Shown in pieces: positions 3,001 to 6,000 of a stretch of 64,000 nucleotides of DNA. This stretch comes from Escherichia coli (GTDB taxonomy: Bacteria; Pseudomonadota; Gammaproteobacteria; Enterobacterales; Enterobacteriaceae), in NCBI RefSeq assembly GCF_003790525.1, contig NZ_CP033635.1, one strand, 5' to 3'. Position 1 is the first letter of the stretch, and every line of letters starts with the position of its first letter. Made by a program: the position numbers.

Positions 3001-6000
3001 AACCATAAACAAAATGATGCGTTAGGTCTTTATCTTGATCTCCTTATACAAGCAATCGACACTGGTACTATTAACGCTGAAGATTGGCAAAAAGGTGACC
3101 GATTAAAATCGGTTGCGCTGCTGATTGCTTATCTGGATAAAGCCAATTTCTATATTATGGAAGATTCCGGAGCGTGGGAAGAAGATGCCCGATTAAACAC
3201 ATCTTCCGTTGCACTGGTGACCTCTGGACTGGAACGTTTGTCAAACCTACTCTCGAAGAAAGACTCTGTTTTTGTCTCTGATTTACTACGCGAAGCTAAA
3301 GCCAATGAACTGGATGCAACTTTTTCAACAACGAGGTTGAACCACCTCATAGATAAAGGTTATGAAAGAATAACGTTACAGCTTGATTTAGGGGGAGAAT
3401 CCCCAGGTTATCTGGAAAAAGATAAACATTACAGAGAAGCCGATGCGGCTTTACTTAATGTTATTTATCCTGCAAATCTTTCAAAGATAAATACCAGAAG
3501 AAAAGAGCAAGTTCTAAAAATAGTTAAAAAACTAGCAGGTCCGTATGGTATAAAAAGATACGAGAAGGATAATTATCAGTCGGCAAATTTTTGGTTCAAT
3601 GATATTAAAACCGATACCGATCAAAATTCACATGCGAAAAGAGAAATGAGCTTCATTCCATCAACAGAAGCAGAATGGTTTTTTGACTCATGGTATGCAA
3701 AATCAGCAGCAATTGTTTATAAAGAATCAAGAAAAGAAGAGTATTTGAATGACTCTGTGCAATTTATGAATAGATCATTGGCCCAAATAACAGGCGAGAA
3801 TATGATTGGTGCAAATGGCAGGAGTGTACCTGAAATGGCACTTCCCGAAAGCTATAACTATATCCACAAGTCGGGAACTTTGCATGAAGCGCCAAGCCCT
3901 ATCATTCCGCTAAATTGGTCGAAAGCTTCAATGACTCTCATGTTGAAAGAGATGTCCAACCTTATCAATGATGAGGGAAATAAATAGTTTTCATAATGAG
4001 GCGGTCCTGGATTAAAAGGACCGCTCAAAGAGAAATCGAAAGGGGAGGTAAAAGTGATCAATAAATTACTGTTAGCTTACCTGATAGGTCTGGTTGTGAC
4101 ATCGACCTTAATATTTATCTTCTCGGAAGAAAAAGTAACATATCGGTTGTTTGCTGCAGCAATTACAGGGTTGACCTGGCCGCTTAGCCTCATTCCATCC
4201 ATCATAAGTCTCATGATTCGTAAATCCGACTAGCAAGAAAATTATATGATCGATTAAGAAAAATAGAATCGAACAAGAGAATAAAATATATGCGGGGAGT
4301 AACAAAACACTCGCAGTGCGTTAATGAAGAACTAACAAATATGATTTGTATTGAAAATAGTTATCAAACAAGTGTTATAAGAAATACGGGGTATGTTTAA
4401 GTAAAACATATCAACAGTTGCAATTCTGTATATGGACAGGATGACTTACTACTGTAAGTAGTTGATAGCTATTCGCTCATAACAAAATCATTATTTTATA
4501 AATAGGAATCATCACTTTTTAATCATGTTTTTATAGCAAGTTTATGGAGAATGAGAATATGGAATAAGGAGATGAAACATGATTGAAGAAGGGCTGTTAC
4601 TTCCAATGAATGTTTTGCTTCAAGGACAGAAGTTAACCCTACTGGACCCTGAAATGTGGTTCTTACGGGGAAATGAAAACAAGGATGTAACCCTTGTTAT
4701 TACGATCGGTAATAACCATCAAAAATTAATGGTAGTGGAAGATATATTACTGCTCATTGACCGAAGCCAAATTGAGGTAACTGCAGGGAAAGTAATTTAT
4801 CATCCACTTCGCATTGATATCCTGAGTAAATTATTAGCTTTTATAGATGAATCAACGGGGAGTGTGGAAAGGGAGCACCATGAGTTGTTTGCTGATGCCT
4901 TGCCCTTTGCATCAGAAGTTGTGCTATTCAGTAAAGTTGCAAGTGAAGCCTGGTTTTTAGCCACTTATCTGAGCAGCGATAATATTAATGAAATTCTGTT
5001 TCAGCATCTAAGAAAAACAGAATGCTATAAACTGGTTCGCTATTTATTATCGCAATCGCTCATACAGACTTCACTCTATGATCTTGGTGAGCTTTACGGC
5101 GTATCGTATTCACATTTTCGCCGTTTATGTAGTTATGCATTGGGTGGTAAAGTTAAAACGGAATTATGTGGCTGGAGAGTTGCCAGAGCCGTGTTGGAAA
5201 TCATTGAAGGAAACAGTGATATGACAACTATTGCGCATAAATATGGCTACTCATCCTCATCACACTTTTCAGCCGAAGTAAAAAGCCGGTTAGGAAAAAC
5301 ACCGAGAGAACTATGTAAAAAGTTATGAAAATAAAATTACGTATTACTATTATATTAATTTCAGCCTTATGCATTTTTAATGGATTATTGACTCCTGGTG
5401 CATATGCCGCAACAGCGAATGGATACGTAGCAAATAAAGAAAATCTACGTAGTTTTTTTGAAACGGTTTCATCATATGCGGGTAAGCCTACAATAGTAAG
5501 TAAGCTTGCCATGAAGAAACAGATCAGCGGAAATTTTGATTTAACCGAACCCTATGCCTTGATTGAACGCCTGTCGGCGCAGATGGGACTTATTTGGTAC
5601 GATGATGGCAAAGCTATTTATATCTATGACTCATCAGAGATGCGTAATGCGCTGATTAATCTGAGAAAGGTATCGACGAATGAATTTAATAATTTCTTAA
5701 AAAAATCGGGTCTGTATAACTCTCGTTATGAAATTAAAGGGGGCGGCAATGGTACTTTCTATGTTTCAGGGCCACCGGTGTATGTTGACCTGGTCGTTAA
5801 TGCTGCAAAATTGATGGAGCAAAACAGCGATGGCATTGAGATCGGTCGCAATAAAGTAGGAATAATTCATCTGGTCAACACATTCGTTAATGACCGGACT
5901 TATGAGTTACGTGGCGAAAAGATAGTTATTCCGGGCATGGCAAAAGTACTATCGACATTGTTAAATAATAACATTAAACAAAGCACAGGAGTGAACGTAC

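What the first reader, a model, noticed from the sequence alone, without database searches (positions are those of the whole stretch)
4054..4233. Unannotated-looking small membrane protein gene with a strong ribosome-binding site, upstream of the inv-like operon
A GGGGAGG Shine-Dalgarno with ideal spacing precedes a GTG-initiated 59-codon ORF predicted to encode two TM helices. Small membrane proteins of this kind are routinely missed by gene callers. The competing minus-strand track ORF (4108..4305) has no comparable signal.
Basis: seen in the sequence. Interest (0 to 1): 0.35.

Follow-up and report, generated by a model that had tools for sequence, protein, structure and literature searches.

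The report
Known GhoT/OrtT-like gene ECs3735
The small ORF is a real, conserved gene for a two-helix membrane protein. It is not unannotated: it is ECs3735 of the ETT2 island, which RefSeq labels a "GhoT/OrtT family toxin", so the finding is ordinary.

Summary
Window 4054..4233 (+) is a GTG-initiated 59-codon ORF preceded by GGGGAGG (4042-4048), and it encodes two hydrophobic helices.

The reading "real small membrane-protein gene" is right. The reading "unannotated-looking" is wrong.
- PGAP calls exactly this CDS as "GhoT/OrtT family toxin" in all 7 fetched strain loci and under all 29 full-length rows of a ranking-wide sample of the 1327 of 5426 complete E. coli genomes that carry it.
- It has been ECs3735 in O157 Sakai all along.
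- A 2014 ETT2 review lists it as a ydcX (= ortT) homologue and inner-membrane protein.

Supporting evidence:
- It passes the Pfam PF10753 threshold (45 bits against 22).
- It is 39% identical to GhoT.
- It is under purifying selection (dN/dS 0.04-0.2 within E. coli; pN far below pS in deeper pairs).
- The rival minus-strand ORF carries in-frame stops in O157 and another lineage.

No GhoS antitoxin gene is nearby, so it is an orphan like OrtT. Toxicity is inferred, not shown.

One point goes beyond the annotation. This gene and its closest relatives (E. albertii, Yersinia enterocolitica, unassigned contigs) form a clade that lies next to an exported GH15 glycoside hydrolase gene in every case with enough sequence to judge. 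That hints at a link to GH15 rather than to the type III system.

Interest is low.

The parts
4054..4233 (+). CDS for a 59-aa GhoT/OrtT-family small inner-membrane protein (orthologue of ECs3735; identical to WP_016234872.1), GTG start, TAG stop
   Evidence: ORF. Identical PGAP CDS in strain CM2. Pfam PF10753 at 45.4 bits against a cut-off of 22.1. dN/dS 0.04-0.2. AlphaFold helical hairpin.
4042..4048 (+). Shine-Dalgarno sequence GGGGAGG, 5 nt before the GTG
   Evidence: Read directly. Unpaired in the predicted mRNA fold. Some strains have GGGAGG, one G fewer. The related genes show AAGGA, GAGGA or GGGAG within about 5-13 nt upstream of their start codons.
4001..4024 (+). GC-rich hairpin (GCGGTCC / GGACCGC, 10-nt loop) between the GH15 stop codon and the SD, with no U-tract; a likely weak terminator, attenuator or RNA-stability element
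   Evidence: strand folding gives MFE -19.7 kcal/mol, z = -2.8. The stem is invariant in 8 strains. Non-homologous hairpins occupy the same position in the E. albertii and Yersinia-type spacers.
2376..3987 (+). Upstream partner gene: exported GH15-family glycoside hydrolase (ECs3736-3737 / pkgA / K-12 ygeQ-ygeP remnants), frameshifted near 2956-2987 in this window
   Evidence: Two overlapping ORFs. tblastn with the intact 536-aa protein of strain 4012 aligns in two frames. Annotated 'glycoside hydrolase family 15 protein, frameshifted' in O157. Signal-peptide-like N-terminus.
4108..4305 (-). Competing antisense ORF (65 codons); not a gene
   Evidence: In-frame stop codons in L002 (O157:H7) and L009. 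Substitutions fall on its first codon positions, with dN/dS about 0.4-1.8.
4579..5328 (+). eivF (invF-like AraC regulator), first gene of the downstream eiv operon; context only
   Evidence: ORF. HTH_18/HTH_AraC domains. Annotated eivF in strain PD23 and in Sakai.
2069..2142 (+). glyU tRNA-Gly(CCC), the ETT2 island boundary; context only
   Evidence: ARAGORN. GC falls from about 50% to 35-41% beyond it.

Best explanation
Window 4054..4233 is the already-annotated gene ECs3735, a divergent third E. coli paralogue of the GhoT/OrtT family (Pfam PF10753). It sits in the low-GC ETT2 island between the GH15 hydrolase gene and eivF. Shown here: it is translated from the GTG behind a strong SD into a 59-aa protein that forms a two-helix transmembrane hairpin (TM1 about 2-23, polar loop SEEK, TM2 about 28-58 kinked at the invariant TWP-x-S motif), and it is kept under purifying selection. 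Inferred from GhoT and OrtT: it inserts into the inner membrane and, when produced at sufficient levels, perturbs membrane integrity and lowers proton-motive force and ATP, slowing growth. It has no adjacent GhoS-type antitoxin, so it is an orphan like OrtT rather than a type V toxin-antitoxin pair. Its expression is probably kept low by its position behind a hairpin at the end of the GH15 gene, by the GTG start, and by location in an AT-rich horizontally acquired island. The confidence of 0.6 refers to the whole statement including the inferred membrane-damaging activity. That it is a real gene and a sequence-level GhoT/OrtT family member I put at about 0.97.
For: An identical CDS is annotated 'GhoT/OrtT family toxin' by PGAP, and it is ECs3735 in Sakai. 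The literature lists it as a ydcX homologue and inner-membrane protein (PMC3977695). Pfam PF10753 scores 45.4 bits against a gathering score of 22.1. BLASTP gives 39% identity to K-12 GhoT (E = 3e-12) and 25% to OrtT (E = 4e-6). Family-invariant residues Y9, T41, W42, P43 and S45 are conserved. Hydropathy and AlphaFold (pLDDT 89) support a helical hairpin, matching the two TM domains (6-26, 34-54) described for OrtT/GhoT (PMC4344625). Selection is purifying: 9 of 12 variable sites are at third codon positions, dN/dS is 0.04-0.2 within E. coli, and pN is 0.24-0.40 against pS 0.7-0.95 for E. albertii and Yersinia relatives. GhoS is absent by tblastn in the window and in all related loci. GhoT and OrtT toxicity, membrane damage and ATP loss are experimental results in PMC4344625.
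Against: No experiment on this paralogue was found (0 papers for Z4199; ECs3735 appears only in one table). Phe38, whose F38R change abolishes GhoT toxicity and reduces OrtT toxicity, aligns with A36 here, which is the one polymorphic residue (A/V/I) in E. coli and is V/S/I in relatives. The gene has 3 GCU (MqsR) sites where ghoT has none, so GhoT-type regulation does not carry over. The gene is absent from about 1966 genomes that still keep the GH15 3' end, so its loss is well tolerated and it does not behave as an addiction module. The recurrent adjacency to GH15 suggests a role other than a stand-alone toxin. No convincing own promoter was found: promoter-like sites were 4 against 3.2 expected by chance.
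Confidence: 0.6

Rival explanations
1. The protein is not primarily a toxin. It is a membrane accessory partner of the exported GH15 glycoside hydrolase encoded beside it (for example in localisation, release or regulation of the enzyme), and the two genes form a small mobile module that in Escherichia happens to lie at the edge of ETT2.
For: The closest relatives outside E. coli found by an exhaustive phmmer scan all lie beside a GH15 gene: E. albertii L011 and L021, Y. enterocolitica L013 and L015, unassigned L012, and L016 with reversed gene order. The two proteins co-diverge: GH15 76.5% and 58% identity where the small protein shows 59% and about 40%. These proteins form their own clade with 74% bootstrap support. 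The GhoT, OrtT and Serratia-type loci examined (5 of 5) have no GH15. The Yersinia loci have no T3SS genes nearby but are flanked by IS elements.
Against: The GH15 proteins have their own signal peptides, so they need no holin-like exporter. The nearest GH15 homologues outside this set (L023 65%, L024/L025 54%, Commensalibacter L026 55%) have no PF10753 relative within the flanks fetched (3-4 kb), by six-frame hmmsearch. In E. coli the GH15 gene is often a pseudogene (this window, O157, CM2) while the small ORF stays intact, and GH15 remnants persist without the small gene in about 1966 genomes. A hairpin separates the two genes. Linkage could reflect joint transfer only.
Confidence: 0.2
2. 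It is a dedicated component or regulator of the ETT2 type III secretion system, expressed with the eiv (inv-like) operon.
For: It lies inside the ETT2 island, 345 nt upstream of eivF on the same strand. It is counted among the 35 ETT2 ORFs in reviews. Related modules are sometimes near SPI-1-type genes (InvH in L016).
Against: The Yersinia-type relatives occur with GH15 but without T3SS genes in the flanks available. The family (GhoT, OrtT, Serratia orphans) is unrelated to secretion. No counterpart is listed among SPI-1 homologues in the ETT2 table, where its only listed homologue is ydcX. The 29% GC intergenic region 4234-4578, the most variable stretch here, separates it from eivF.
Confidence: 0.05
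3. The ORF is a decaying remnant or chance ORF in AT-rich DNA, or the real gene is the minus-strand ORF 4108..4305.
For: Chance ORFs are common here (33 ORFs of at least 30 aa in 4 kb). ETT2 is known for mutational attrition. The small protein evolves faster than its neighbours (dN 0.29 against 0.15 for GH15 and 0.065 for EivF, E. coli vs E. albertii).
Against: Significant Pfam and BLASTP matches. The frame is intact in all 7 fetched strain loci and in E. albertii and Yersinia relatives, with pN far below pS. TAG->TAA keeps the stop. The minus ORF has premature stops in two lineages.
Confidence: 0.02

Closest known systems
GhoT (YjdO), toxin of the type V GhoT/GhoS system of E. coli K-12
   Same: Same Pfam family (PF10753) and similar size (57 vs 59 aa). 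Same two-TM hairpin. 39% identity over 46 residues. Shared Y9, S24, R31 and G-x-TWP-x-S motif.
   Different: No ghoS upstream: the upstream gene is a GH15 hydrolase and tblastn for GhoS is negative. 3 GCU sites where ghoT has none. Phe38 is replaced by A/V/I. C-terminal tail MIRKSD instead of FSLF. Located in a horizontally acquired island present in only 1327 of 5426 genomes.
OrtT (YdcX), orphan toxin of E. coli K-12
   Same: Same family. Orphan arrangement without an adjacent antitoxin. The ETT2 literature already names ydcX as the homologue of ECs3735. Contains GCU sites, as ortT does.
   Different: Only 25% identity over the core. Different locus: patD-ortT-ydcY against GH15-ECs3735-eivF. 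Belongs to a different clade. Nothing is known about stringent-response or trimethoprim induction.
GH15-linked GhoT/OrtT-family genes of Escherichia albertii and Yersinia enterocolitica (RefSeq 'GhoT/OrtT family toxin')
   Same: Closest relatives (59% and 38-44% identity). Same neighbour, an exported GH15. A hairpin in the spacer wherever GH15 lies upstream. Diagnostic [Y/F]-R loop residue and S-L-[I/F]-P motif. They form a clade at 74% bootstrap.
   Different: The Yersinia-type proteins are 57 aa and lack the MIRKSD tail. Their modules are flanked by IS elements rather than T3SS genes. One lineage (L016) has the small gene upstream of GH15.
Phage holins (small membrane proteins paired with a hydrolase)
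   Same: A small two-TM membrane protein encoded next to a glycoside hydrolase. GhoT-family proteins cause lysis ('ghost' cells) when over-produced (established knowledge; PMC4344625).
   Different: No significant PHROGs match (best E = 0.02, families of unknown function). The hydrolase is GH15 (glucoamylase / phosphorylase-kinase-like), not a known muralytic family, and has its own signal peptide. There is no prophage context.

Membership tests
GhoT/OrtT family (Pfam PF10753, formerly DUF2566) | Sequence match to the family profile above the curated gathering score | tested here: met
   45.4 bits against a cut-off of 22.1, E = 9.7e-12, residues 4-46 on profile positions 3-46 of 55. All database orthologues carry PF10753.
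GhoT/OrtT family (Pfam PF10753, formerly DUF2566) | About 57-aa protein with two transmembrane helices joined by a short polar loop | tested here: met
   59 aa. Hydrophobic segments 4-24 and 32-55. AlphaFold helices 2-23, 28-40 and 46-58, pLDDT 89. The same layout is published for OrtT/GhoT.
GhoT/OrtT family (Pfam PF10753, formerly DUF2566) | Conserved motif: Y in TM1, S...R around the loop, G-x-T-W-P-x-S in TM2 | tested here: met
   Y9, T41, W42, P43 and S45 are invariant, and S24, R31 and G39 nearly invariant, in a 17-sequence alignment including GhoT and OrtT.
GhoT/OrtT family (Pfam PF10753, formerly DUF2566) | Growth inhibition, membrane damage and ATP depletion on production of the protein | not testable with these tools
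   Shown experimentally only for GhoT and OrtT (PMC4344625). No experimental paper on ECs3735/Z4199 was found.
GhoT/OrtT family (Pfam PF10753, formerly DUF2566) | Phe38, the residue whose F38R change abolishes GhoT toxicity and reduces OrtT toxicity | tested here: not met
   It aligns to A36 in the window protein, which is A/V/I among E. coli alleles, I in E. albertii and V/S in Yersinia types. This is a functional marker of two members rather than a family-defining residue.
Type V toxin-antitoxin system (GhoT/GhoS) | Antitoxin gene ghoS (endoribonuclease) immediately upstream in one operon | tested here: not met
   The upstream gene is GH15. tblastn with K-12 GhoS finds nothing in the 64-kb window or in L011-L021.
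Type V toxin-antitoxin system (GhoT/GhoS) | Toxin mRNA devoid of MqsR GCU sites (basis of MqsR-dependent enrichment of ghoT mRNA) | tested here: not met
   3 GCT sites in the window CDS, 0 in K-12 ghoT and 2 in ortT (the published contrast is).
OrtT (YdcX) orthologue group | Orthology: high identity and the patD-ortT-ydcY locus | tested here: not met
   25% identity. Different neighbours. Separate clade. It resembles OrtT only in being an orphan.
ETT2 / SPI-1-type T3SS structural or regulatory gene set | Homologue in SPI-1 or Mxi-Spa clusters, and obligatory co-occurrence with T3SS genes | tested here: not met
   The only homologue listed in the ETT2 table is K-12 ydcX. Yersinia-type relatives lack T3SS genes in the flanks available.
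Phage holin | Match to holin families; lysis-cassette context with a muralytic enzyme | tested here: not met
   PHROGs gives only E >= 0.02 hits to families of unknown function. The neighbour is GH15 with a signal peptide.

The most novel reading that the evidence does not exclude
The GH15-linked clade of GhoT/OrtT-family proteins (E. coli ECs3735, E. albertii, Y. enterocolitica and relatives) is not a stand-alone toxin. It is the membrane partner of an exported GH15 glycoside hydrolase in a two-gene mobile module that repeatedly travels with, or next to, SPI-1-type T3SS islands. That would mean the 'toxin' label of PF10753 hides a physiological membrane function.
Probability: 0.15. Interest if true: 0.45.

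Novelty: already known. Interest (0 to 1): 0.12.

Why it matters
For the scan, this is a case of re-discovering an annotated gene. ECs3735 has been in genome annotations since the Sakai genome record and is now labelled as a GhoT/OrtT family toxin. Its practical value is modest. It confirms that sequence reading alone picked a true small gene and the right start codon.

It also flags that ETT2-positive E. coli carry a third, uncharacterised GhoT/OrtT paralogue with no antitoxin. Published surveys of E. coli toxin-antitoxin repertoires count only GhoT and OrtT (for example PMC7232551; ETT2 status of its reference strain not checked here).

The recurrent pairing with an exported GH15 gene is, as far as the searchable literature shows, unremarked (0 papers). 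It could guide a simple experiment on what this clade actually does.

Tried and rejected
- The genome-contig scan with the sub-family alignment used the single narrow pattern [TV]G[LF]TWPLSL. It returned only one E. coli-like contig in a mis-binned 'Collinsella' MAG, so it was of no use for species-level context.
- NCBIfam has no specific model: only sub-threshold CcmD-like and YijD hits.
- PADLOC gave nothing for the small protein or for GH15. PHROGs gave nothing significant. Holin and defence-system readings were therefore dropped.
- Rfam on 3800-4700 gave only a chance-level fluoride-riboswitch hit (13.5 bits against a gathering score of 34). There is no evidence of a type I-style antisense RNA.
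- The promoter scan was no better than shuffled sequence (4 found, 3.2 expected), so no own promoter can be claimed. The one '+' terminator-like hit at 4092-4107 lies inside the CDS and is treated as chance.
- tblastn of the small protein and of GH15 against plasmids hit only chromosomes mislabelled as plasmids.
- PDB sequence search with GH15 gave only a marginal hit to the phosphorylase kinase beta GH15-like domain (E = 0.0015), so the substrate cannot be inferred.
- P0083, a 639-aa '7-stretch' hit in the representative search, is a low-complexity repeat protein and is spurious.
- The 78-aa upstream-ATG version called by some pipelines was rejected. That ATG (3996) is out of frame in this window and comes into frame only in strains with one G fewer in the SD. 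It has no SD, and GhoT, OrtT and PGAP all support the short form.
- NC_002655.2 (EDL933) is not in the collection. The Z4199 tag was inferred from Z4198 = eivF, and it has no full-text hits.
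Full report
**1. The observation**

The stretch reads ...AAAGGGGAGGTAAAAGTGATC....
- GGGGAGG lies at 4042-4048, followed by a 5-nt spacer, GTG at 4054 and TAG at 4231-4233.
- The product MINKLLLAYLIGLVVTSTLIFIFSEEKVTYRLFAAAITGLTWPLSLIPSIISLMIRKSD has two hydrophobic segments (about 4-24 and 32-55) around a polar loop.
- AlphaFold2 on a 17-sequence family alignment models a confident helical hairpin (pLDDT 89): helices 2-23, 28-40 and 46-58, with the break at the TWP motif.

**2. It is a real gene**

Across the window and seven fetched E. coli loci, 12 sites vary inside the ORF. Nine of them are + frame third positions, one of which converts TAG to TAA and so keeps the stop. 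The other three sit in codons 35-36.

Nei-Gojobori dN/dS between divergent lineages is 0.04-0.2. On the antisense ORF the same substitutions hit first codon positions. That ORF has an in-frame stop in O157:H7 NE1127 and in strain AR437, so it is not coding.

In deeper comparisons (E. albertii, Yersinia-type relatives) synonymous sites are saturated (pS 0.7-0.95) while pN is 0.24-0.40.

**3. It is not unannotated**

- A megablast of 3990-4320 finds the locus in 1327 of 5426 complete E. coli genomes.
- In a sample of 30 taken across the whole ranking, all 29 full-length matches have 'GhoT/OrtT family toxin' as the feature under the match.
- In the 100%-identical strain CM2, PGAP calls exactly the same 180-nt CDS (WP_016234872.1). 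The same holds in O157:H7 and five other strains.
- In O157:H7 Sakai it is ECs_3735 / NP_311762.1, 'hypothetical protein', between eivF (ECs3734) and ygeP/GH15 (ECs3736-3737).
- Table 1 of the 2014 ETT2 review lists 'ECs3735, 180 bp, ydcX, inner membrane protein' and 'ECs3736/pkgA, phosphorylase kinase and glucoamylase' (PMC3977695).
- By position after eivF = Z4198 it should be Z4199 in EDL933 (inference).

**4. Family assignment**

Pfam PF10753 (Toxin_GhoT_OrtT) matches at 45.4 bits against a gathering score of 22.1.

Against K-12 proteins fetched from NC_000913.3, it is 39% identical to GhoT over 46 residues (E = 3e-12) and 25% identical to OrtT (E = 4e-6). The family-invariant Y9, T41-W42-P43 and S45 and the nearly invariant S24, R31 and G39 are present.

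GhoT and OrtT are 57-aa, two-TM inner-membrane peptides. Their production damages the membrane, lowers ATP and arrests growth. OrtT is an orphan that GhoS does not neutralise (PMC4344625).

**5. What kind of member it is**

- There is no GhoS. The upstream gene is a GH15 hydrolase, and tblastn with K-12 GhoS finds nothing in the window or in any related locus.
- The CDS has three GCU sites, whereas ghoT has none and ortT has two. The MqsR-based logic of ghoT therefore does not carry over.
- Phe38, whose F38R change abolishes GhoT toxicity and reduces OrtT toxicity, corresponds to A36, the one polymorphic residue (A/V/I).

It is thus an orphan, OrtT-like in arrangement but not an OrtT orthologue. 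Its toxicity is inferred, not shown. No paper on its function was found, and a survey of E. coli toxin-antitoxin repertoires lists only GhoT and OrtT (PMC7232551).

**6. Start codon and upstream signals**

Some pipelines call a 78-aa version from an ATG at window 3996. In this window that ATG is out of frame. It opens a 22-codon frame ending just inside the gene. It comes into frame only in strains whose SD has one G fewer (GGGAGG). It has no SD of its own, and its codons run through a hairpin. GhoT, OrtT and PGAP all support the short form.

Between the GH15 stop (3985-3987) and the SD lies a GC-rich hairpin, GCGGTCC-N10-GGACCGC (4001-4024), with MFE -19.7 kcal/mol, z = -2.8, and no U-tract. 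The SD itself is unpaired in the predicted fold.

Only about 15 nt separate the hairpin from the SD. Transcription must therefore come from the GH15 gene or from a promoter inside its 3' end. The only candidate (TTGAAA-18-AATGAT, 3943-3972) is no better than chance. Rfam finds nothing.

**7. Context beyond the annotation**

An exhaustive phmmer scan of 1.84 billion representatives finds few relatives at this length. The nearest outside E. coli are P0082 (60%), P0084 and P0085 (44-45%), ahead of GhoT itself.

Their contexts:
- E. albertii: GH15 - small gene - eivF - secretin (L011, L021).
- Y. enterocolitica: GH15 - small gene, flanked by IS elements with no T3SS genes (L013, L015).
- Unassigned L012: the same arrangement.
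- L016: small gene, then GH15 857 nt downstream, with an InvH gene beside it.
- L020: a 2.2-kb contig, too short to judge.

The partners co-diverge. GH15 is 76.5% identical between E. coli and E. albertii and 58% between E. coli and Yersinia, where the small protein is 59% and about 40%. All the GH15 proteins have signal-peptide-like N-termini. Wherever GH15 lies upstream, the spacer to the small gene carries a stable but non-homologous hairpin.

In an NJ tree these proteins form a clade (74% bootstrap) apart from GhoT, OrtT and Serratia-type members. Diagnostic residues are [Y/F]-R instead of I-R in the loop and S-L-[I/F]-P instead of S-L-P-V. The GhoT, OrtT and three Serratia loci have no GH15.

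**8. Limits of the GH15 link**

Starting instead from GH15, the subfamily is much wider: Commensalibacter, Elusimicrobiota, Bifidobacterium and Bdellovibrionales. The three nearest homologues outside Escherichia and Yersinia have no PF10753 relative within the flanks fetched (3-4 kb), by six-frame hmmsearch:
- L023, 65% identical, next to PrgH, needle, PrgK and OrgA genes.
- L024/L025, 54% identical.
- L026, 55% identical.

In E. coli the GH15 3' end survives in 3293 genomes against 1327 for the small gene. GH15 is a pseudogene in this window, in O157 and in CM2 while the small ORF is intact. The pairing is therefore recurrent but not obligatory, and it may reflect co-transfer rather than joint function. 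I rate the functional-partner reading at about 0.2.

**9. Island setting**

glyU tRNA-Gly(CCC) lies at 2069-2142. Beyond it GC drops from about 50% to 35-41%. GH15, the small gene and eivF all lie in the acquired ETT2 island, in agreement with the literature.

The small protein evolves about twice as fast as GH15 and 3-4 times as fast as EivF and EivG between E. coli and E. albertii (dN 0.29 against 0.15, 0.065 and 0.089). Fast evolution is not unusual for a small membrane protein (general knowledge).

**10. Verdict**

- Observation: confirmed.
- Interpretation: partly supported. It is a true small membrane-protein gene with the right start, but it is already annotated and already assigned to a known family.
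- Novelty: already known.
- Most likely mechanism: an orphan GhoT/OrtT-type inner-membrane peptide that perturbs the membrane when expressed. The fold and selection are shown; the activity is inferred.
- The only new element is the clade-specific association with an exported GH15 gene, which deserves a note but not a high score.
- Interest: 0.12.

Noticed in passing
window 2376-3987 (frameshift near 2956-2987): The GH15 glycoside hydrolase gene upstream (ECs3736-3737 / pkgA) is split into two overlapping ORFs (2334..3008 and 2923..3987) by a frameshift in this window. It is intact (536 aa) in other strains, and in the otherwise identical strain CM2 it is interrupted by an IS3 element.
   Followed up: partly
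L016:2537-5823; L023:1-5647: This exported GH15 subfamily recurs next to SPI-1-type T3SS genes in unrelated contigs: InvH in L016, and PrgH, needle, PrgK and OrgA plus ParA/ParB-like and SopD-like genes in L023. The GH15 gene, not only the small ORF, may therefore be a habitual passenger of Inv/Spa-type islands.
   Followed up: partly
window 3996-4064: An upstream ATG opens a 22-codon frame (MRRSWIKRTAQREIERGGKSDQ*) that overlaps the GTG start out of frame. In strains with GGGAGG instead of GGGGAGG it is in frame, which explains the 78-aa gene calls in many assemblies.
   Followed up: yes
window 4001-4024; L011:2053-2090; L012:2262-2286; L013:2245-2271: Every GH15-to-small-gene spacer holds a stable GC-rich hairpin of unrelated sequence just after the GH15 stop, mostly without a clear U-tract. 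This may be a conserved attenuator or RNA-stability feature.
   Followed up: partly
window 4156-4160 (codons 35-36): The only amino-acid polymorphism hotspot of the protein (AA / AV / AI / TI) coincides with the position aligned to Phe38 of GhoT/OrtT, the residue whose F38R change abolishes or reduces toxicity.
   Followed up: partly
window 4234-4578: The 345-nt intergenic region before eivF is 29% GC and is the most variable stretch among strains (31 variable sites). It presumably holds the eivF promoter and H-NS-bound region. No RNA family or convincing promoter was detected.
   Followed up: no
L010:3001-3806 (strain 4012): In this strain an IS1 element sits 16 nt after the match to window 3990-4021 ends. 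The IS1 replaces the small gene and the eiv genes, down to a frameshifted epaO-type (YscQ/HrcQ family) gene. This is one route by which GH15 is kept while the small gene is lost.
   Followed up: partly
L011 and L021 vs window 2376-7028: ETT2-edge genes are unusually diverged between E. coli and E. albertii: EivF 88%, EivG 86%, GH15 76.5% and the small protein 59% amino-acid identity, with dS above 1.3.
   Followed up: no
L014: A contig assigned to a 'Collinsella sp.' MAG (JAIJJM010000090.1) carries a 97%-identical copy of this E. coli gene. This is most likely a binning contaminant.
   Followed up: no
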